Origin: Gammaproteobacteria bacterium | GTDB taxonomy: Bacteria > Pseudomonadota > Gammaproteobacteria > GCA-001735895 | Direction of reading: 5' to 3' | DNA: 64,000 nt | NCBI GenBank assembly: GCA_014382695.1 | Contig: JACNJF010000194.1 | Coordinates: 861 to 64,860 of the forward strand | Shown here: positions 1 through 37,082 of the stretch, in pieces | How the letters are laid out: each line of letters begins with the position of its first letter | Position numbering within the stretch: position 1 is the first letter of the stretch | Position numbers and translations under genes: made by a program | Notes under the pieces: generated by a model | What the model was told of the DNA's origin: nothing | The model's input: only the letters and a program-made list of their open reading frames with translations | The model's database searches: none

Positions 1-284
1 GTAGTGCGGTATTCATGGAAGAGCAAGGCCATGCTTTGAATATGCGATATAGCCGACGCAAACACAATATTATCTGGTCCGATGATGTGCTGACGCAGGA
101 GGCGCTGGATTGTCTGGATGGGTTTCTGGAGTCGGACTCACCCTACCATGTACGCTACCGTCTGAATCAGGGCGAAGGTGTTATGTGTAATAATGTATTG
201 CATACACGCACTGCCTTTACCGACAGTGCTGAACATAAGCGAGTTTATTATCGGGCTCGATACTACAACCGAATTGAATGTTAG
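1..284 (+). CDS. 3' end of a TauD/TfdA-type Fe(II)/2-oxoglutarate dioxygenase-like gene; the 5' end lies upstream of the window
   Basis: The frame of ORF 15..284 stays open back to the window edge. The C-terminal '...GVMCNNVLHTRTAF...YYRARY' resembles the distal His/Arg region of TauD / gamma-butyrobetaine-hydroxylase-type enzymes. The call rests on motif recall only. Confidence 0.4.
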   Translation, partial: SAVFMEEQGHALNMRYSRRKHNIIWSDDVLTQEALDCLDGFLESDSPYHVRYRLNQGEGVMCNNVLHTRTAFTDSAEHKRVYYRARYYNRIEC

Positions 285-296
285 AGAGAGAATTTT

Positions 297-485
297 ATGC
301 TGTGGCTAAGTGAAGTACTACTGCAAAACCCGCAACTGGAGTCGTTTGAAGATCTACAGGATGTCATTTCTAAGCGCGCGGCTGCGGGAGAGCGTTTTTT
401 CAGAATGGATTTAAAACCGCCGTTCAGCGATACCCCCGGAAACTGGGAAGATCGCCTGGAAGCTGTTTTTACCGCAGTACGCTAA
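297..485 (+). CDS. hypothetical small protein (62 aa)
   Basis: The ORF sits 12 nt after the preceding stop and 18 nt before the next gene on the same strand. I recognise no motif. Confidence 0.35.
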   Translation: MLWLSEVLLQNPQLESFEDLQDVISKRAAAGERFFRMDLKPPFSDTPGNWEDRLEAVFTAVR

Positions 486-503
486 AGCAGGGGAGTCAAT
501 TCT

Positions 504-1196
504 ATGTACTGGCAGGAAGATCAGGATAAAGGTGAGCACTTCGTTGTTCCAGATGATGTAGTGGACCTACTGTTCAGTATCGAGTGCAGAGATCTGCCGC
601 TGGATCATGGCTTTGTACTGTCACAGCAGATCATAAAAAATCTGCCCTGGATACAGGAAGAGCCGCAGGCAGGCATCCATCAGATACATGTGGCCGAATC
701 GGCGAATGGCTGGATGCGTCCGGAAAATACTGAAACCGAAGTGCTGTGTGTTTCTCGTCGTACTAAAATGACACTACGATTGCCAGCCAGCAGACTGGAT
801 GAGGCAACAGCATTGACTGGAAAAACGCTCGACATACAGGGCCATGCGTTGACGGTAGGGCGTTTCTCTACCCGCAAACTGAGTCGATTAACCACTATAT
901 TTGCGCGTTATGTGGATACCCTCGGTAGCGATGACGAAACCGAGTTCCTGGAGTCGATGCAGCAACAACTGTTGCAGAAAGGCATCCGGGTTAAGAAGAT
1001 GATGAGTGGAAGGCTGCTCACCCATCAAAGCGATGAAGGCATCATCCTCACCCGTAAACTGATGGTTAGCGACCTGACCGTTGAAGAGTCTGTGCTGCTG
1101 CAGGAGCAGGGCATAGGCGACCGAAAATTAATGGGAATGGGTATCTTTATGCCACATAAGGGCATAGATGCGGTGAATAAAAAGCAGGAAGGCTAG
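504..1196 (+). CDS. stand-alone Cas6/Cmx6-like RAMP protein (no CRISPR context)
   Basis: This 230-aa ORF ends near its C-terminus with 'GIGDRKLMGMGIF', an exact GhGxxxxxGhG glycine-rich loop as in Cas6 RAMPs. The N-terminus 'MYWQEDQD..VVPDDVVDLLFSIECRDLPLDH' resembles what I recall of the Cas6/Cmx6 (MYXAN subtype) family. That it is a CDS is near certain; the family call is moderate. Confidence 0.5.
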   Translation: MYWQEDQDKGEHFVVPDDVVDLLFSIECRDLPLDHGFVLSQQIIKNLPWIQEEPQAGIHQIHVAESANGWMRPENTETEVLCVSRRTKMTLRLPASRLDEATALTGKTLDIQGHALTVGRFSTRKLSRLTTIFARYVDTLGSDDETEFLESMQQQLLQKGIRVKKMMSGRLLTHQSDEGIILTRKLMVSDLTVEESVLLQEQGIGDRKLMGMGIFMPHKGIDAVNKKQEG

Positions 1197-1230
1197 TCAC
1201 TTACTATAACCAATGGGATAAGTGACTTTT
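1196..1230 (+). terminator. weak hairpin with a short T-run after the Cas6-like gene (possible attenuator or partial terminator)
   Basis: GTCACTTA (1196-1203) pairs with TAAGTGAC (1219-1226) around a 15-nt loop, followed by TTTT. The long loop and short stem make it weak. Confidence 0.25.
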
Positions 1231-1301
1231 CTAAAAACTTGTGGGAAAGTACTGCCCGAATTATTCCATTGATAACAACTTAACGATATTGAGGCATACC
1301 T

Positions 1302-1622
1302 ATGGCACTTGAGTCAGTCGAAAGAACAGAAAAAGGTTACCTGGTCAATTCAAATGACTGGAATGAAGAAATCGCAGCAGAGCTTTTTGCAGAAGAAGGC
1401 ATTACTCCTACCAAAGAACACTGGGATATCATCAAGTACGTGCGTGAGGAAACGCTGGGTGGAGATGAGCCGAATGAGCGTAGCATCATGAAAGCGATGG
1501 GCAAGATCTGGGGGCGCAAGGTGAGCTCGAAGGAAATGTATGAAATGTTTCCCCTTATGCCGTCCAAGCAGGGTCTGAAGATTGGTGGTTGTCCGCAAAG
1601 TACCCGTAAAGGCGGTTATTGA
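1302..1622 (+). CDS. DsrC/TusE-family protein, non-canonical (C-terminal arm lacks the conserved cysteines)
   Basis: At 106 aa it has the length and layout of E. coli TusE ('..EGYL...W.E..A..LA..EGI.L...HW..I.F.R..Y...P..R...K......KG.S..LY.LFP..P.KQ..KI.G'). The arm ends 'KQGLKIGGCPQSTRKGGY' instead of '..AGLPKPxxC-x'. Confidence 0.8.
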   Translation: MALESVERTEKGYLVNSNDWNEEIAAELFAEEGITPTKEHWDIIKYVREETLGGDEPNERSIMKAMGKIWGRKVSSKEMYEMFPLMPSKQGLKIGGCPQSTRKGGY

Positions 1623-1769
1623 TTCAAGATTTTCTGTGAGAGTATTGCTGAAGTAGTGGATAAAAAGGTATTTTCTACCACCTTAGTAATAGTGACGTAA
1701 AGCGACTATTCGCTTACTCTTTCGCCATCTTACAGGTTTATTAGCACACAGTTTGCAGAGGAAGAATTT

Positions 1770-1973
1770 ATGAGCGACAAAGCGGCAAAGATTCAAGAGC
1801 TGATCGAAATGCAGAAAAAATTTATTGCATACGAACAAAAAAATGGCGTTAACTTCAAAGACTATTTCACACCAGAAGCTGGTCATGAGTTAGATGGTTA
1901 CCGTCAATCTTATATGGATAAGGCGATGGAACTGGTCGATATTGCGCATGCGGAAAAAGGATCGCATCGTTAA
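1770..1973 (+). CDS. hypothetical small protein (67 aa)
   Basis: The ORF is preceded by 'gaggaagaattt' (an SD-like GAGGA) and followed directly by a strong intrinsic terminator. I recognise no family. Confidence 0.5.
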   Translation: MSDKAAKIQELIEMQKKFIAYEQKNGVNFKDYFTPEAGHELDGYRQSYMDKAMELVDIAHAEKGSHR

Positions 1974-1998
1974 TCTACAATTTAATACCTGGTCCCAG

Positions 1999-2025
1999 AA
2001 AAGCCGCTTTCTAGCGGCTTTTTTT
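1999..2025 (+). terminator. rho-independent terminator
   Basis: AAAAGCCGC (1999-2007), loop TTTCTA, then GCGGCTTTT followed by a T-run. Confidence 0.8.
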
Positions 2026-2190
2026 ATGGCTGGCTCAAAAAGTTTTAAGCTTTATCTATAGCTCCTGTTATATGGTCAAAAGGGTGGGAATATAAATCAG
2101 ACGTGATTTAAGGTCTTTGTTCTATACTTTATTTATCTAAACCTGTTTACTCAGACTGGAACAACCTGAATCACACTAAAAACGGCACGT

Positions 2191-5100
2191 ATGATTTTAG
2201 CGCAACCATTAACTCGACCGGATATAGGGATGCATCAGTCTATCTCTGTTGGCATCAATGGCTTATTCCATGATCTCGAATATAGTTTAAGTTTACTTTT
2301 CAATATATTGATTTATTTAGTATTTGTATCAATATTTCTGCTGTCTTCTGTTGCATTTGCCAATCAGGCACCTGGTTTTGTGGCAACCTCTTTACTACGC
2401 GTAGCCCTCGATGATAACTATCCACCATACGTCATGCGTAGGACTGATGGTTCAGTTGAAGGTTACCTGATCGATGAATGGAAGTTGTGGGAAGCTAAAA
2501 CCGGTGTCAAAGTCGAGCTGATTGCGACGGACTGGGCGCAGGCAAAAAAAAACATGGCAGAGGGCCGCTCCGATGTGATTGATACTATCTTCCGCACGTC
2601 TGAGAGGGAAACCCGACTGGAATTCAGTGCGCCATACGCGACCTTGCCCGTTTCCATCTATACGATTTCGAAACTGCTCGGTATCAATGATATCAACGGA
2701 CTGGAAGGCTTTCGGGTGGGTGTAAAGGATGGTGATGCCTGTGTCGACAGGCTGCGTGCCGGCGGAATTACCGATATAAAGCCTTATACCGATTATGAAA
2801 CCCTGTTGCAGGCAGTTCTGGCTGAGAAGGTGCATGTTTTCTGTATGGATGATCCCCCTGCCAATTATCTTATTTTCCGGGCTGGAGCCGAACACAAGCT
2901 ACTCAAGGCTTTTAGCCTGTATAGCGGAGAGTTTCATCGTGCCGTGCGCAAAGGTGATAGCGCGACTCTGGCTCTGGTTGAGTCGGGATTTGCAGCGATT
3001 ACAGCGCCTGAGCGTGAAGCGTTGCAGGATAAGTGGATGGGACAGAGCCTGCAAAATCCATTGCTACGCAATCTCATTTATTACCTTGTTATTGCTGCGA
3101 TCCTGGCGGTGTTACTGCTGGTCGTATCACTCATACTTCGCCATCTGGTGAGAGTACGCACAGCCGCTCTGGTCACTTCACAAAATAAACTGCAGGCGAC
3201 ACTGGATGCGTTACCGGACCTCTTGTTTGAGATGGATATCAACGGGTGTTATCTCGCTTACCACTCTCCCCGCACCGATTTACTGGCGCTTCCTGTCGAG
3301 CATTTTCTGGGCAAGAAAAACGATGAATTATTGCCGCCCGAAGTGGCTAAAATTGGCATGGAGGCAATACAAGAAGCCGCACAAATGGGCTTTTCCTCGG
3401 GCCGCCAGTTTGAGTTAAGGCTCGGTGGTGTGATTCACTGGTTTGAGCTATCGGTTGCTCGAAAATCGGGTGAGGCTGGCAAACTTCCTTCCTTCGTCGT
3501 ACTTTCTCGTGATATCACCTCACGTAAGCTGGCAGAGTTACAGGTTGCCCGTTTGACCCGTCTATACGCAGCCTTAAGTCAGTGCAACCAGGCGATAGTA
3601 CGTTGCACAACTGAAGCTGAGCTGTTTACCCAGATTTGCCGCGATGCGGTGAATTTTGGTGGGATGAAAATGGCCTGGATCGGTTTGATGGACGAAACCA
3701 CCAACAGTGTTAATCCAGTGGCCGCTTTTGGCGAGGGAATTAAGTATCTGGAGGGACTGGAGATTTCCCTGGATGCGAATTCAGCCAGTGGTCGTGGCCC
3801 GACCGGAATCGCCTTACGCGAAGACCGGCCTTACTGGTGCCAGGATTTTGAGCAGGATCCGGCTACTGCACTTTGGCATGAGCGCGCTGCAGAGTTTGGC
3901 TGGAAATCATCGGCGGCATTACCTCTTTACCGCAACAATATCATCATCGGTGCCTTTAATCTGTATGAAGATAGTGTCGATGCGTTTGATGAGGCCGCGC
4001 AAAACCTGCTGGTCGAAATGGCAACCGATATCAGCTATGCGCTGACCAATTTTGCCCATCAGCAAGCGCGCCAGCAGGCGGAACATGAACGTGAACAGTT
4101 GCTGCAACGAGAACAGCAGGCACGCAATGAAGCCGATAAAACGCGCCGGACCATCAGCGATATCATCGGTAGAATCAGTGATGGCTTCGTCGCACTGGAC
4201 AGAAACTGGTGCTACACCTATGTCAATTCTCAGGCTGCTGAGATGTTTGATCGTAGCGTAGAACAACTAGTCGGTAAGCATATCTGGACAGAGTTCCCCG
4301 AAGGGGTGGGGCAAAAATTTCAACTGGCCTACGAAAAAGCGATGCATGAGCAGAAACCAGCTTTTTTTGAGGAGTATTATCCACCTTATAAGCGCTGGTT
4401 TGAGAATCACATCTATCCATCCCCGGATGGGATATCGATTTACTTTCACGATGTCACCGAACGCAAGCGCATAGAGCAGGCATTACGCGAAAGTGAACAG
4501 GCTTACCGCGCTACTTTTGAGCAGGCCGCTGTGGGTATTGCAAATGTAGCAGCCGATGGGACCTGGCTCGAGGTTAATAACCGGCTGGCTGAGATTGTCG
4601 GCTATACGCATGATGAGTTACTCGAGTTGACCTTTCAGGACATCACGCATCCGGCTGATCTACAGAAAGATCTGGACAGTGTGCATCGGTTACTGGCTGG
4701 AGAAATCGATACCTACAAAATGGAGAAGCGCTATATCCGTAAGTCAGGTGACTTCATATGGATACAGTTAACTGCTTCGCTGGTGAAAAATGATGACGGA
4801 TCGCCCAAATACTTTATTTCAGTAATAGAGGATATCCATCAGCGTAAACTTGATGAGGTTCAATTGCATAAATTGTCGATCGTGGTTGAGCAAAGCCCCA
4901 ATCCCATCATGATTACCGATCTGGACACCAAGATTGAGTATGTGAATGCAGCTTTCAATCAAGTCTCCGGTTACAGTTCAGACGAAGCGCTGGGGAAAAC
5001 ACCGCAATTATTAAAATCAGGCGAGACTCCCATCGAGGTCTATCAGGATATGTGGGCACATCTTTTACGCGGTGAGGTATGGCGTGGAGAACTAACCAAT

Positions 5101-6531
5101 CAACGCAAGGATGGCAGCGTGTATGACGAGCTGGCGATCATTTCGCCGGTGCGTGATGCCAATGGAACTATCACCAATTATCTCGGCATCAAGGAAAACA
5201 TTACCGAGAAAAAGCATGCTGAAGCGCGCATTCAGCAACTGGCCTATTTTGACCAACTCACCGGCCTGCCCAATCGCAGCCAGTTGATTGACCGCTTCAA
5301 TTCTGCACTCAGTTTTGCGCAACGTAATACTGAGAAATTGGCGCTCATGTTTCTGGATCTGGATCATTTCAAGAATATCAATGACACCCTGGGGCATAGT
5401 ATTGGAGATAAATTACTGGTAAAGGTTGCGCACCGGCTTAAACGTATCCTGCGCGAAGAGGACACTTTATCGAGGCTGGGCGGTGATGAGTTCATCCTGT
5501 TATTGCCAAATACCGAGGAAGATGAAGCGCGCCAGATTGCGATTAAACTGATTGAAGCGATTGCTCTACCGTTTCAGCTTGATCAGTATGAACTGGGAAG
5601 TACGCTGTCGATAGGTATTGCGATCTACCCGCTTGATGGCGAAGACTTTGAAACACTGCTACGCAATGCGGATACCGCAATGTACCGGGTGAAACAGGCC
5701 GCGCGTAACGATTTCTGTTTCTTTACCGAGGAGATGCAACTGCATTCTGCGCGCGCATTGAAACTACTGAATGCATTACGTCATGCGCTGGCACGGAATG
5801 AACTGCAGCTACATTATCAGCCACAAATAGAGTTGGTCAGTGGAAGGGTGATTGGTGCGGAAGCCTTACTGCGTTGGAACAATGCTGAGCTGGGTATGAT
5901 TTCACCGGCTGAGTTTATCCCGATTGCGGAAGAGAGTGGACTGATTTTACCGATCGGTGAATGGGTGTTGCGCAGCGCAGTGACTCAGATGAAGCGCTGG
6001 ATGGATGACGGCCTGGCACCGATTGTCGTAGCCGTGAATCTGTCCGTGGTGCAGTTTCGTCATCCTAATCTGACCGACCTGGTCACACGGATACTGAAAC
6101 AGGCTGGTTTGCCGGCGCAGTATCTGGAGCTGGAGTTGACCGAGGCGGTTGCGATGAAAGATCCACAGGGTGCTATTGGAGTGATGAACCGATTGCATGA
6201 GCAAGGTATCCAGATGTCGATCGATGACTTTGGAACCGGTTATTCCAGTTTGAGTTATCTAAAGAAATTCAAGATTGCCAAACTCAAAATCGACCAGTCA
6301 TTTGTACGCGATATTATTGATGATCCGGATGATAGGGCGATTGTGGTTGCGATCATCAATCTGGCCCGTAGTCTGGGTATCCAAACCCTTGCCGAAGGGG
6401 TCGAAACGGAGCATCAGCAGTCACTCCTGCAGGCCCAGGGCTGTGATGAAGTGCAGGGTTATTACTACAGCAGACCGCTGCCGGCGGATCAGTTTGAAGC
6501 CTATGTGCGGAATAAGACAGGCTTAAATTGA
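2191..6531 (+). CDS. multi-sensor c-di-GMP protein: periplasmic solute-binding (PBPb) domain, TM, PAS, GAF, three PAS, GGDEF, EAL
   Basis: N-terminal TM, then an SBP-type-3-like segment ('LRVALDDNYPPYV..GYLIDEW') and a second TM ('LIYYLVIAAILAVLLLVV'). PAS/GAF segments follow. GGDEF reads 'REEDTLSRLGGDEF', giving an RxxD I-site plus an intact GGDEF. EAL reads 'GAEALLRW', 'DDFGTGYSSL', 'KIDQSFV'. An alternative start lies at the Met of 'MHQSIS'. Confidence 0.9.
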   Translation: MILAQPLTRPDIGMHQSISVGINGLFHDLEYSLSLLFNILIYLVFVSIFLLSSVAFANQAPGFVATSLLRVALDDNYPPYVMRRTDGSVEGYLIDEWKLWEAKTGVKVELIATDWAQAKKNMAEGRSDVIDTIFRTSERETRLEFSAPYATLPVSIYTISKLLGINDINGLEGFRVGVKDGDACVDRLRAGGITDIKPYTDYETLLQAVLAEKVHVFCMDDPPANYLIFRAGAEHKLLKAFSLYSGEFHRAVRKGDSATLALVESGFAAITAPEREALQDKWMGQSLQNPLLRNLIYYLVIAAILAVLLLVVSLILRHLVRVRTAALVTSQNKLQATLDALPDLLFEMDINGCYLAYHSPRTDLLALPVEHFLGKKNDELLPPEVAKIGMEAIQEAAQMGFSSGRQFELRLGGVIHWFELSVARKSGEAGKLPSFVVLSRDITSRKLAELQVARLTRLYAALSQCNQAIVRCTTEAELFTQICRDAVNFGGMKMAWIGLMDETTNSVNPVAAFGEGIKYLEGLEISLDANSASGRGPTGIALREDRPYWCQDFEQDPATALWHERAAEFGWKSSAALPLYRNNIIIGAFNLYEDSVDAFDEAAQNLLVEMATDISYALTNFAHQQARQQAEHEREQLLQREQQARNEADKTRRTISDIIGRISDGFVALDRNWCYTYVNSQAAEMFDRSVEQLVGKHIWTEFPEGVGQKFQLAYEKAMHEQKPAFFEEYYPPYKRWFENHIYPSPDGISIYFHDVTERKRIEQALRESEQAYRATFEQAAVGIANVAADGTWLEVNNRLAEIVGYTHDELLELTFQDITHPADLQKDLDSVHRLLAGEIDTYKMEKRYIRKSGDFIWIQLTASLVKNDDGSPKYFISVIEDIHQRKLDEVQLHKLSIVVEQSPNPIMITDLDTKIEYVNAAFNQVSGYSSDEALGKTPQLLKSGETPIEVYQDMWAHLLRGEVWRGELTNQRKDGSVYDELAIISPVRDANGTITNYLGIKENITEKKHAEARIQQLAYFDQLTGLPNRSQLIDRFNSALSFAQRNTEKLALMFLDLDHFKNINDTLGHSIGDKLLVKVAHRLKRILREEDTLSRLGGDEFILLLPNTEEDEARQIAIKLIEAIALPFQLDQYELGSTLSIGIAIYPLDGEDFETLLRNADTAMYRVKQAARNDFCFFTEEMQLHSARALKLLNALRHALARNELQLHYQPQIELVSGRVIGAEALLRWNNAELGMISPAEFIPIAEESGLILPIGEWVLRSAVTQMKRWMDDGLAPIVVAVNLSVVQFRHPNLTDLVTRILKQAGLPAQYLELELTEAVAMKDPQGAIGVMNRLHEQGIQMSIDDFGTGYSSLSYLKKFKIAKLKIDQSFVRDIIDDPDDRAIVVAIINLARSLGIQTLAEGVETEHQQSLLQAQGCDEVQGYYYSRPLPADQFEAYVRNKTGLN

Positions 6532-6547: not shown

Positions 6548-7219
6548 TTAAAGTTCGACCCAGCGCCGCACCAGATTATTAAAGGTAGCACTAATCTTAC
6601 GGGTCGCTTCTGAGTTGGGTAATTCTTTATACAGCATTTCACGTGCCTGATTCAGCTCGTAAAGCATTTCGCGTTTTGCTGGATCGCGCACGGTACTTTG
6701 TGACCAGGTGACCGCAACCAGTCGAACTCCACTGGTAACCGGCGCGACATAATGACGACTATGCGACGGGTACATCACTGCAGAACCGGCTTGCAGCTTG
6801 ATCTGCCTTTCACCATAGCTATCCATGATGGTCAGTTCGCCCCCTTCATAGTCTTCCGGATCGGATAAGAAAATGGTGGTTGAGACATCGGTGCGGTAGA
6901 GTTCTCCCTGACCCATGATCGGATCATCGACATGTTCACCATACGCCATACCCTGTTCATAACGCACATAAAACGGGGCCGCGACACGTTTTGGCCACAC
7001 CACCGCCTTAAATTTCGGGTGGCGCACCAGGTTACCCATTACCAATTCATTGAGTTCATTAAAATGGCTCGATTGCGGATTCATTTCCTGATTATTTTTG
7101 ACCCCCCTGGCCATCATGCCTGCAGAAAGCCTGCCATCGACGAAAGGGGAATCCTGCAGTAACTGCCTTATTTTAGTCAGGTTTTGTGCGGATATAAGGT
7201 GATCAATAGAAGCTAACAT
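6548..7219 (-). CDS. ybiX: PKHD-type Fe(II)/2OG hydroxylase (YbiX/PiuC family)
   Basis: End-to-end resemblance to E. coli YbiX: 'VKNNQE', 'HVDDP', 'TDVSTTIFLSDPEDYEGGEL', 'YPSHSRHYVAPVTSGVRLV'. Confidence 0.85.
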   Translation of the reverse strand: MLASIDHLISAQNLTKIRQLLQDSPFVDGRLSAGMMARGVKNNQEMNPQSSHFNELNELVMGNLVRHPKFKAVVWPKRVAAPFYVRYEQGMAYGEHVDDPIMGQGELYRTDVSTTIFLSDPEDYEGGELTIMDSYGERQIKLQAGSAVMYPSHSRHYVAPVTSGVRLVAVTWSQSTVRDPAKREMLYELNQAREMLYKELPNSEATRKISATFNNLVRRWVEL

Positions 7220-7253: not shown

Positions 7254-7574
7254 ATGATACTGAATATCCTAATTGAAGACCAAAGTTATCCCGTGGAAGT
7301 GCCGGAGGCGATTGTGATGGAAGCCGGTGATTATTTTCAGACTCTGGACAAAGATATGGACAAGGGCTGGCAGATGAGTCGAAGCTGGGTGGATAAGCCC
7401 AATGTCGAGCAGCGTTGTCAGATCGTGGCCGACCGGATTCTGGGTGCATTTGAGCAGGAAAATAAAGCCTCACTGGTGATGCTGTCGGCGTATATCCTGT
7501 CGCGCTACCCGAGCGTGAAGAGCGTTTCGATTAGTACCGATGGTGAAATGCAGGAAACTTCTTTCGACTTTTAA
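7254..7574 (+). CDS. hypothetical protein (106 aa from ATG 7254; the ORF is open from 7227)
   Basis: ATG 7254 is preceded by 'caggaaaacgc' (SD). ATG 7227 overlaps the TATAAT and leaves only 7 nt to the divergent ybiX start. No family recognised. Confidence 0.6.
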   Translation: MILNILIEDQSYPVEVPEAIVMEAGDYFQTLDKDMDKGWQMSRSWVDKPNVEQRCQIVADRILGAFEQENKASLVMLSAYILSRYPSVKSVSISTDGEMQETSFDF

Positions 7575-8657: not shown

Positions 8658-9034
8658 GTTTTTCTCAATAGCGCTTACGTGCGATAGTTTATTGTTTAAA
8701 ACGACCACTTCAGTGCAAAGCTGACAGTCTATTTTAAGAAAGTCTGGTTATTTAAATTACTCACGCTTCCAGAGGTGCGCCATTTAATTCTGGATGTTAT
8801 AGGAAACAGGGGTTTCAGGCATTATCGCCAGGTGTCTACTATCTACCAATGGCTCTTTCTTCTTTTATCCACGTTAAGCCCTGTAATTTTCAATTTAACA
8901 GTGGTTTAAACTCTAAATGTCTCACTACATGAAGGCGTTCAACAAAATTATTAGCAAGTAGCCACAAGTTATTAGAACAGGAATAAGTCTCATTTATACT
9001 GCATCCATTCATAGTCACCCACCAGGTATACAGT

Positions 9035-36431: not shown

Positions 36432-36597
36432 AACATTCTCCTCAAATTCAGACGATAAAAAAAGATTATTTGGCGCTGTAGCGCACTCGTAAGAATTGCC
36501 ACAGGCCGAAAAATGTGAGTATTTTACTAGAAAAAACGCAGTTTATAATATCTCTATTGGGAGTATGCGTGGATTTACGTCCCATCAGGGATATTCG

Positions 36598-36623
36598 AAT
36601 AATAATGAATAATGATTATTATT
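36598..36623. repeat. AT-only inverted repeat upstream of the Sel1 gene
   Basis: AATAATAAT (36598-36606), an 8-nt spacer, then ATTATTATT (36615-36623), about 35 nt upstream of ATG 36657. Confidence 0.5.
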
Positions 36624-36656
36624 ATCAACAGTTTATTTATCAGGAGTATATATTTG

Positions 36657-37082
36657 ATGACTACCGATGCTGATATGAATTTTATTAGTGGTATGTCGGC
36701 CTTTGAATCTAAAGAGTTCATCCGCGCCGTACAGTTTTTACTACCCTTTGCCGAAAAAGGTGACCCGGATGCCCAGCACCGTGTTGCTATCATGTACCAA
36801 AATGGTCTGGGCATGGTGAAAAAGGAAGCACTGGCTTTCAAGTGGATGAAAGCGGCCGCTGACCAGGGCCATGCGGTTGCACAGCATGGACTCGGGTTTA
36901 TGTATATGGATGGCGATTGTGTTGAAAAGGATGGCGCCAAAGCGGTTGAATGGTTTAGCAAGGCTGCCGATCAGGGGCTGGTCGGCTCGATGACGACACT
37001 TGCCATGATGTATGAATCTGGTGATGGGATTGAGAAAGACCCAGAGAAAGCAAAAGAACTTTACGCGAAGGCGGGGTTTTAA
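36657..37082 (+). CDS. Sel1-repeat (TPR-like) protein
   Basis: Three to four Sel1 repeats ('GDPDAQHRVAIMYQNGLGMVKKEALAFKWMKAAADQGHAVAQHGLGFMYMDG..V.KD..KAVEWFSKAADQG'). An AGGAG SD precedes ATG 36657; the ORF is open from 36612. Confidence 0.8.
   Translation: MTTDADMNFISGMSAFESKEFIRAVQFLLPFAEKGDPDAQHRVAIMYQNGLGMVKKEALAFKWMKAAADQGHAVAQHGLGFMYMDGDCVEKDGAKAVEWFSKAADQGLVGSMTTLAMMYESGDGIEKDPEKAKELYAKAGF

What the first reader, a model, noticed from the sequence alone, without database searches (positions are those of the whole stretch)
297..2025. Orphan Cas6/Cmx6-like RAMP protein operonic with a cysteine-less-arm DsrC/TusE homologue; no CRISPR array or other cas genes
- The 230-aa protein ends with GIGDRKLMGMGIF, an exact GhGxxxxxGhG glycine-rich loop diagnostic of Cas6-type RAMPs.
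- I find no repeat-spacer array and no cas1, 2, 3, 5, 7 or 8 anywhere in the 64 kb.
- It is flanked by a 62-aa ORF upstream and, 106 nt downstream, by a DsrC/TusE-fold protein. A 67-aa ORF and the only strong terminator of the block (1999-2025) follow.
- The DsrC/TusE arm reads KQGLKIGGCPQSTRKGGY. The penultimate persulfide-carrying Cys of TusE/DsrC is absent, and the second conserved Cys position of DsrC is Leu. The single Cys is displaced into 'GGCP'.
- DsrC-family members lacking the arm cysteines have been proposed to be regulatory rather than sulfur carriers.

An RNA-recognising RAMP fold paired with a non-catalytic DsrC-like protein suggests a non-CRISPR role for a Cas6 relative, such as RNA processing or binding tied to sulfur or tRNA-thiolation regulation. 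This last point is inference.
Basis: partly seen in the sequence, partly recalled or inferred. Interest (0 to 1): 0.6.

Follow-up and report, generated by a model that had tools for sequence, protein, structure and literature searches.

The report
Cas6 relative recruited to sulfur-oxidation genes
A protein with the fold of the CRISPR RNA-cutting enzyme Cas6 has left CRISPR altogether and, with a cysteine-less DsrC look-alike, is a fixed neighbour of the sulfur-oxidation (dsr) operon in hundreds of sulfur bacteria, so it probably has a new, still untested job.

Summary

The context is what matters. The window starts 829 nt from dsrA. The block TauD-like, orf62, Cas6-like, DsrC-like, orf67 is divergent from dsrABEFHCMKL. 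That arrangement recurs in Chromatiaceae, Thiotrichales, symbionts and a 35%-identical lineage (dsrA upstream in 43/52 loci, orf62 in 63/71, DsrC-like in 48/64). No CRISPR-like array occurs in 1.38 Mb of loci.

Canonical Cmx6 proteins (23-26% identity) head full cas operons and are basic (pI 9.2-9.6). The dsr-linked clade is acidic (median pI 6.0) and mostly carries an extra GW loop and a PHK tail.

The DsrC paralogue's hallmark is an invariant C-terminal KGGY, not the 'GGCP' cysteine.

Function is inferred, not shown. My best guess is a regulatory, non-catalytic module of the reverse-Dsr pathway, with RNA binding by the Cas6 relative the leading but unproven activity. It is a new variant of a known kind.

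The parts
15..284 (+). C-terminal third of a TauD/gamma-butyrobetaine-hydroxylase-like Fe(II)/2OG oxygenase. It is 292 aa on the full contig L001, and its 5' part lies off the window.
   Evidence: Pfam TauD 69.7 bits for the full-length protein. It lies upstream in 42/58 loci. A 12-nt gap separates it from orf62.
297..485 (+). orf62: small acidic protein (pI 4.5) of unknown fold family. It is the most constant neighbour of the Cas6-like gene.
504..1196 (+). Cas6-like protein (Cas6/Cmx6 family, dsr-linked clade), 230 aa.
1205..1220. TATAACCAATGGGATA, a degenerate copy of the palindrome TATCCC-N4-GGGATA. The palindrome also lies about 160 nt upstream of dsrA.
   Evidence: It is conserved in sister lineages and always lies upstream of the DsrC-like gene, whichever way that gene points.
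1302..1622 (+). DsrC-family paralogue lacking both arm cysteines, with an invariant C-terminal RKGGY.
   Evidence: dN/dS is 0.06-0.09.
1770..1973 (+). orf67: small conserved protein of unknown function.
   Evidence: Present within 2.5 kb downstream in 29/62 loci. dN/dS is 0.15. No family match.
1997..2027 (+). Intrinsic terminator closing the block.
   Evidence: Fold dG -21.9 kcal/mol, z -3.7, followed by a U-run.
6548..7219 (-). YbiX/PKHD-type Fe(II)/2OG hydroxylase. It belongs to the same module in relatives. Here a PAS-GGDEF-EAL gene separates it from the block.
   Evidence: NCBIfam NF003974, 249 bits. It lies directly after orf67 in L004 and elsewhere. Present within 5 kb downstream in 19/53 loci.
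7254..7571 (+). orf106: conserved unknown protein that travels with the hydroxylase.

Best explanation
The 230-aa gene encodes a genuine Cas6-fold protein of the Cmx6 family that is no longer part of a CRISPR system. It belongs to a large, strongly conserved clade. In sulfur-oxidising Gammaproteobacteria this clade is a fixed accessory of the reverse dissimilatory sulfite reductase (rDsr) locus.

The core module is orf62, the Cas6-like protein and a Cys-less DsrC paralogue ending in KGGY. Aerobic lineages often add two Fe(II)/2OG oxygenases. The module is transcribed divergently from dsrABEFHCMKL.

Proposed mechanism (inferred, not shown): the module is regulatory rather than catalytic. The DsrC paralogue keeps the DsrC body and flexible arm but cannot carry sulfur, so it would act as a mimic or sensor of the Dsr sulfur relay. 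The Cas6 derivative would use its retained Cas6 groove (G-rich loop, the His aligned with a His of canonical Cas6, conserved Arg/Lys) to bind a specific structured RNA and set the expression of dsr-related transcripts. It might also cleave that RNA.

The shared palindrome TATCCC-N4-GGGATA, found upstream of dsrA and of the DsrC-like gene, shows the two are co-regulated.

What is shown: identity, fold, synteny, purifying selection and absence of CRISPR. What is inferred: RNA binding, the target and the regulatory role.
For: Identity and fold:
- The G-rich loop and the LQEQGIG...G.GIF segment are nearly identical to those of a CRISPR Cas6.
- H59 aligns with a His of 8fcj_B. R86 and R92 are invariant, and R135 and K219 are at least 95% conserved, in 376 family members.

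Non-CRISPR status:
- No array or cas genes in the window.
- No CRISPR-like array in 92 loci plus the window, 1.38 Mb in total.
- The canonical Cmx6 repeat hairpin is absent.
- As a positive control, canonical Cmx6 genes head complete cas operons with arrays.

Linkage to dsr:
- L001 is the same DNA as the window (1 mismatch in 11,196 nt). It shows dsrA 829 nt left of the window start.
- Relatives occur in 257 species genomes.
- dsrA lies upstream in 43/52 loci, orf62 in 63/71, and the DsrC-like gene downstream in 48/64.
- The same arrangement, again with a KGGY-ended DsrC paralogue, occurs in a 35%-identical lineage and in L092.

Function is maintained: dN/dS is 0.06-0.16 for all four ORFs.

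Co-regulation: the palindrome lies 155-265 nt upstream of dsrA in nearly all loci, and again upstream of the DsrC-like gene.
Against: - The clade is acidic (window protein pI 5.5, family median 6.0, only 8% above 8). Three canonical Cmx6-type Cas6 proteins have pI 9.2-9.6. This is atypical for an RNA-binding endonuclease.
- No RNA element is demonstrably tied to the protein. The palindrome shows no strand bias between G.U and C.A variants, and its half-sites are conserved in sequence. It therefore reads at least as well as a DNA operator.
- The palindrome is absent next to solitary copies of the gene.
- The window's second copy cannot form a good hairpin on either strand.
- Clade-specific conserved features could equally form a protein- or ligand-binding site. 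These are the HxxHVAESANGWxRP loop and the PHK tail.
- The putative catalytic position H35 is Asn or Tyr in the distant dsr-linked lineage.
- There are no expression, binding or genetic data.
Confidence: 0.4

Rival explanations
1. A protein-only module. The Cas6 fold has been re-used as a protein or ligand-binding scaffold and has lost RNA binding. With orf62 it holds or presents the Cys-less DsrC paralogue. That paralogue would compete with, or allosterically modulate, DsrAB, DsrEFH or DsrK by inserting its KGGY arm where DsrC's Cys arm normally goes.
For: - Acidic pI across the clade, against pI 9.2-9.6 for canonical enzymes.
- Conserved clade-specific loop and tail.
- Two constant small protein partners.
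- Invariant arm terminus KGGY across very distant lineages.
- A precedent exists for a small Dsr protein acting allosterically on DsrAB: DsrD (PMC8794893).
Against: The G-rich loop is the RAMP RNA-contact element, and it stays at least 95% conserved. Eight Arg/Lys positions are at least 86% conserved, four of them at 95% or more. No direct evidence for any protein-protein contact exists, and no fusion proteins were found.
Confidence: 0.3
2. An RNA or tRNA modification module. The Cas6 relative would supply RNA recognition, the TauD-like and YbiX-like oxygenases the chemistry, and the TusE/DsrC-like protein would act as an adaptor. This is.
For: The TusE/DsrC family works with an RNA-modifying enzyme in E. 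coli (established knowledge). Two Fe(II)/2OG oxygenases travel with the module. One solitary copy lies next to a tRNA-Leu gene and another next to rnc-era.
Against: The linkage is to dsrAB, not to tus, mnmA or other modification genes. The oxygenases are missing from the phototrophic Chromatiaceae versions while the core remains. The DsrC paralogue has no sulfur-carrying Cys. The protein is acidic.
Confidence: 0.1
3. A displaced but ordinary cas6 that serves a CRISPR-Cas locus elsewhere in the genome.
For: It passes the TIGR02807 equivalog cutoff and is named accordingly in GenBank. The rest of the genome could not be inspected.
Against: - The same dsr-adjacent position is kept across families and down to 35% identity.
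- No array lies within 10 kb in more than 80 genomes.
- Identity to CRISPR-linked Cmx6 is only 23-26%, while the dsr-linked proteins compared share 27-64% (mostly 35% or more).
- The cognate repeat hairpin is absent.
- The charge is opposite to that of canonical Cmx6.
Confidence: 0.04

Closest known systems
Type I-MYXAN / I-B Cas6 (Cmx6): PDB 8fcj_B, and cas6 of Synechocystis PCC 6714 pSYLB and Gloeothece PCC 7424
   Different: - Identity is only 23-26%.
- Canonical genes head cas6-cas3-cas8-cas7-cas5-cas4/1-cas2 operons with arrays, whose repeats carry the hairpin GAUGCC-GNAA-GGCGUU.
- Canonical proteins are basic (pI 9.2-9.6).
- The window protein has no cas or array context and is acidic.
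- It carries an inserted HVAESANGWxRP loop, a PHKGI tail and extra invariant Arg/Lys.
[quoted passage not shown]
   Same: The DsrC fold and the conserved body (EHW..I..LR, LFP..P.KQ). A flexible C-terminal arm. It is encoded beside dsr genes.
   Different: Both functional cysteines are absent. The arm ends in an invariant (R/G)KGGY instead of PTGCV. A bona fide DsrC is encoded separately between dsrH and dsrM in the same locus. Whether this clade equals the published RspA group could not be checked.
DsrD, a small allosteric activator of DsrAB in sulfate reducers (PMC8794893)
   Same: A small, non-catalytic, dsr-linked protein once suspected to bind DNA. It is a model for protein-level tuning of DsrAB.
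   Different: Unrelated fold. It is found in reductive-type organisms and has no Cas6 partner.

Membership tests
Cas6 (RAMP) endoribonuclease, Cmx6 subfamily | Profile match above curated cutoffs (PF09559, TIGR02807) | tested here: met
   194 bits against a 26.7 cutoff, and 123.4 bits against a 98.85 cutoff. PADLOC Cas6 models score 123-191 bits.
Cas6 (RAMP) endoribonuclease, Cmx6 subfamily | Two ferredoxin-like/RRM domains | tested here: met
Cas6 (RAMP) endoribonuclease, Cmx6 subfamily | C-terminal glycine-rich loop GhGxxxxxGhG | tested here: met
   G203-I-G205...G211-M-G213. All four Gly are at least 95% conserved in 376 homologues.
Cas6 (RAMP) endoribonuclease, Cmx6 subfamily | Encoded with a CRISPR array and other cas genes | tested here: not met
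   None in the 64-kb window. No CRISPR-like array in 92 loci plus the window. The control loci have full cas operons and arrays. The rest of the genome was not testable.
Cas6 (RAMP) endoribonuclease, Cmx6 subfamily | Binds and cleaves a repeat hairpin RNA | not testable with these tools
   There are indirect hints only. H59 aligns with a His of 8fcj_B. The cognate Cmx6 repeat hairpin is absent from the window and all dsr-linked loci. The acidic pI argues against generic RNA affinity.
DsrC (dissimilatory sulfite reductase gamma protein / sulfur carrier) | Profile match to PF04358 / TIGR03342 | tested here: met
   84.2 and 70.6 bits. The best solved relative is A. vinosum DsrC 1yx3.
DsrC (dissimilatory sulfite reductase gamma protein / sulfur carrier) | Penultimate Cys (CysA) and the Cys ten residues before it (CysB) on the C-terminal arm | tested here: not met
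   The arm reads ...SKQGLKIGGCPQSTRKGGY where DsrC reads ...AKQACKYAGLPKPTGCV. All linked paralogues seen end in KGGY.
TusE (tRNA 2-thiouridine sulfur relay) | Equivalog score and the conserved persulfide-carrying Cys | tested here: not met
   NF008562 scores 61.8 bits against a 191 cutoff. There is no Cys at the TusE position.
Accessory genes of the oxidative (reverse) dsr locus | Conserved physical linkage to dsrAB-dsrEFH-dsrC-dsrMK across lineages | tested here: met
   dsrA lies divergently upstream in 43/52 loci with enough flank. This includes Chromatiaceae, Thiotrichales, Arenicellales and a 35%-identical lineage.

The most novel reading that the evidence does not exclude
The Cas6 relative would be a domesticated, sequence-specific RNA endonuclease or binder that processes or stabilises transcripts of the sulfur-oxidation (dsr) regulon. 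It would be steered by a cysteine-less DsrC mimic that reports the state of the sulfur relay, and in aerobes by O2-dependent hydroxylases. That would be the first case of a Cas6 recruited to control a core energy-metabolism operon.
Probability: 0.2. Interest if true: 0.85.

Novelty: new variant of a known kind. Interest (0 to 1): 0.62.

Why it matters
Databases label thousands of these proteins 'type I-MYXAN CRISPR-associated Cas6/Cmx6'. This inflates CRISPR censuses in sulfur oxidisers and hides a conserved, unstudied part of the reverse-Dsr locus.

If the module regulates dsr expression or DsrAB activity, it bears on an open question. That question is how sulfur oxidisers, many of them uncultured symbionts and sediment bacteria, tune oxidation of stored sulfur.

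For CRISPR evolution it is a clean, testable example of a Cas protein taken over for a host function. It comes with a natural series: canonical Cmx6, then dsr-linked proteins without the GW loop, then dsr-linked proteins with it.

Tried and rejected
- **Rfam on the window.** Nothing found.
- **Literature.** Ten full-text searches found no paper linking Cas6/Cmx6 with dsr genes. The BBA review on DsrC and the DsrC NMR paper were not held.
- **The palindrome as a Cas6 RNA target.** G.U-compatible and C.A variants are balanced between strands. 'Compensatory' changes fit a symmetric DNA operator equally well. The motif is not beside solitary gene copies. It does not resemble the cognate Cmx6 repeat hairpin. 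The question is left open.
- **Fusion proteins joining the partners.** None found. The long family members look like gene-calling artefacts.
- **afdb50 fold search.** The library was unavailable.
- **Decaying relic.** Rejected on dN/dS of 0.06-0.16.
Full report
**1. What is in the window**

ORFs lie at 297-485 (62 aa), 504-1196 (230 aa), 1302-1622 (106 aa) and 1770-1973 (67 aa), all on the + strand. The 3' end of a TauD-family gene (15-284) precedes them. A strong hairpin plus U-run follows at 1997-2027.

Gaps of 12 and 18 nt link the TauD-like gene, orf62 and the 230-aa gene. A 105-nt spacer precedes the 106-aa gene.

**2. The 230-aa protein is a real Cas6-fold protein**

- It scores 194 bits on Pfam PF09559 and 123 bits on TIGR02807 (cutoff 98.85). 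It scores 123-191 bits on several PADLOC Cas6 models.
- A profile of 35 homologues finds only one solved relative, the type I-B Cas6 8fcj_B (E 5e-15).
- The GhGxxxxxGhG loop (G203...G213) is present and at least 95% conserved over 376 homologues.

**3. The 106-aa protein is DsrC-family, but neither DsrC nor TusE**

It matches PF04358 (84 bits) and TIGR03342 (70.6 bits) but misses the TusE equivalog (61.8 versus 191). Aligned to A. vinosum DsrC, both arm cysteines are replaced.

In every linked paralogue recovered the protein ends in KGGY. That covers about 60 loci from Chromatiaceae to Thiotrichales, and 119 of the 120 closest clusters. The true DsrC in the same loci ends PTGCV.

The Cys in 'GGCP' is kept only in the window's own clade. 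Elsewhere it is Leu or Met.

**4. It is orphan with respect to CRISPR**

- The window has no tandem or spaced repeats and no Rfam hit.
- Pfam annotation of the genes called on near-identical contigs, which together span almost the whole window, shows ordinary chromosomal genes and no cas1/2/3/5/7/8. Examples are ftsK, lolA, sdh, iscRSU, cysG and fumC.
- A scan of 92 fetched loci plus the window (1.38 Mb) for any 16-mer repeated at least three times at CRISPR spacing found nothing.

**5. The decisive context lies just off the window edge**

Contig L001 is the same DNA as the window (1 mismatch in 11,196 nt). It shows dsrA starting 829 nt left of window position 1. dsrABEFHCMKL runs divergently from the TauD-like, orf62, Cas6-like, DsrC-like, orf67 block. 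A homologue at 64% identity has the same layout.

A scan of one genome per species found relatives in 257 genomes. The best 80 include:
- Halochromatium, Thiorhodococcus, Lamprobacter and Lamprocystis;
- Leucothrix and Cocleimonas;
- Ca. Thiosymbion, Poriferihabitaceae and Arenicellales.

tblastn mapping of the neighbours gave these counts in loci with enough flank:

| Neighbour | Loci |
|---|---|
| orf62 upstream | 63/71 |
| dsrA divergent upstream | 43/52 |
| KGGY-DsrC within 2 kb downstream | 48/64 |
| TauD-like upstream | 42/58 |
| orf67 within 2.5 kb downstream | 29/62 |
| YbiX-like hydroxylase within 5 kb downstream | 19/53 |

Further points:
- A much more distant member lacks the GW loop (L089, 35% identity). 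It is again divergent from dsrAB and is followed by a DsrC paralogue ending ...KPYGKGGY, then a rhodanese and a TauD-like gene. L092 repeats the pattern.
- In some Thiotrichales the module stays together but is detached from dsrAB.
- A few copies are solitary (L072, L090).
- All four small or medium ORFs are under strong purifying selection (dN/dS 0.06-0.16).

**6. How the clade differs from canonical Cmx6**

CRISPR-linked Cmx6 genes on cyanobacterial plasmids share 23-26% identity with the window protein. They head complete cas6-cas3-cas8-cas7-cas5-cas4/1-cas2 operons with arrays. Their repeats carry the hairpin GAUGCC-GNAA-GGCGUU. That hairpin is absent from the window and from all dsr-linked loci.

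- Canonical proteins have pI 9.2-9.6. The window protein has pI 5.5, the family median is 6.0, and cultured-species members fall between 6.0 and 6.7.
- The dsr-linked clade has its own conserved features (at least 95% of 376 members; R86 in all): W3, H35, the G69-W70 loop, R86 and K219. It shares D21, P32, H59, R92, R135, F148 and the G-rich loop with canonical Cas6.
- Identity among the dsr-linked proteins compared is 27-64% (mostly 35% or more). Identity to 8fcj_B is 24-31%.
- The TIGR02807 'equivalog' model scores the dsr-linked L089 protein (230 bits) above the structurally characterised CRISPR Cas6 (189 bits). This explains why GenBank names all of them type I-MYXAN Cas6.
- The family is large. 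It has 2,612 clusters at 90% identity (E <= 1e-5) and 866 representatives at 50% identity.

**7. A shared cis element**

The palindrome TATCCC-N4-GGGATA lies 155-265 nt upstream of dsrA in almost every dsr-linked locus. In L001 it is at 8815-8830.

A second, degenerate copy lies in the window at 1205-1220, between the Cas6-like and DsrC-like genes. Relatives also keep a copy upstream of the DsrC-like gene, even where that gene is inverted. So the DsrC paralogue belongs to the dsr regulon.

Is it a DNA operator or a leader-RNA hairpin?
- Half-sites are conserved in sequence and the spacer is free.
- Wobble-compatible variants occur on both strands.
- Predicted promoters place it either inside a dsrA leader or at an activator position.

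I read it as slightly more likely a DNA operator. It does not resemble the Cmx6 repeat hairpin.

**8. Interpretation**

Shown: this is a non-CRISPR, dsr-associated Cas6 derivative, with a constant partner set of orf62 and KGGY-DsrC.

Inferred: the module is regulatory, since the DsrC paralogue cannot carry sulfur. The retained Cas6 groove suggests binding of a specific RNA. The acidic charge and the new conserved loop keep a protein- or ligand-binding role almost as likely.

The two Fe(II)/2OG oxygenases are missing from the phototrophic Chromatiaceae versions, while the core remains. This suggests an O2-dependent accessory layer.

From memory, and not checked here: A. vinosum DsrC has been reported to bind dsr promoter DNA, and DsrR/DsrS to affect dsr expression post-transcriptionally. 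Both would fit a regulatory reading.

**9. Novelty**

No paper in the searchable library connects Cas6/Cmx6 with dsr genes (for a dsr synteny study). I class this as a new variant of a known kind: a known fold and family in a new, conserved, non-defence context with unknown function.

Noticed in passing
window 1205-1220; L001 8815-8830; most dsr-linked loci: The conserved palindrome TATCCC-N4-GGGATA lies 155-265 nt upstream of dsrA and again upstream of the DsrC-like gene. It is either an operator or a leader hairpin of a dsr regulon, and its binding factor is unknown.
   Followed up: partly
window 36578-36593: Another near-match to the palindrome (CGTCCCATCAGGGATA) sits about 20 nt upstream of ORF 36612-37082. 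That ORF heads a MoxR-like AAA+/DUF2201 cluster followed by siroheme synthase cysG. It may belong to the same regulon, since siroheme is the DsrAB cofactor.
   Followed up: no
window 297-485: GenBank names this 62-aa protein (MBC8212616.1) 'sulfur relay protein DsrC'. It shows no detectable similarity to DsrC or to any Pfam, NCBIfam or PDB entry. This looks like an annotation error.
   Followed up: yes
window 2191-6531: A 1446-aa SBP-PAS-GAF-GGDEF-EAL signalling protein sits between orf67 and the YbiX-like hydroxylase. In L004 those two are adjacent, so this is a lineage-specific insertion into the module.
   Followed up: partly
L050 9260-9991; L092 8238-8960: In Chromatiaceae and relatives a conserved protein of about 240 aa, with no family match, is inserted between orf62 and the Cas6-like gene. 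The TauD-like and YbiX-like oxygenases are absent from the Halochromatium and Lamprobacter versions.
   Followed up: partly
L089 8783-12520: The distant dsr-linked version reads DUF6967 (73 aa), Cas6-like, KGGY-DsrC (which keeps the 'QAC' Cys), two-domain rhodanese, a 206-aa unknown protein and TauD-like. DUF6967 takes the place of orf62 with no sequence similarity to it.
   Followed up: partly
L001 8670-8830 (dsrA leader, minus strand): Several further blocks are conserved across the window's clade between the palindrome and the dsrA start codon. They include an 8-bp inverted repeat (CTTGTAAT...ATTACAAG-type) and a hairpin enclosing the Shine-Dalgarno sequence. Together they suggest a long structured leader.
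   Followed up: no
L093 8127-8140; L094 8464-8477 and 15326-15339: In the canonical type I-MYXAN control loci, solitary copies of the repeat-hairpin core (ATGCC-N4-GGCGT) lie outside the arrays. They sit upstream of cas6 and, in L094, just after cas5.
   Followed up: no
TIGR02807 scores: The NCBIfam 'equivalog' model for type I-MYXAN Cas6 scores a dsr-linked, non-CRISPR protein (230 bits) above a structurally characterised CRISPR Cas6 (189 bits). It therefore mislabels the whole dsr-linked clade.
   Followed up: yes
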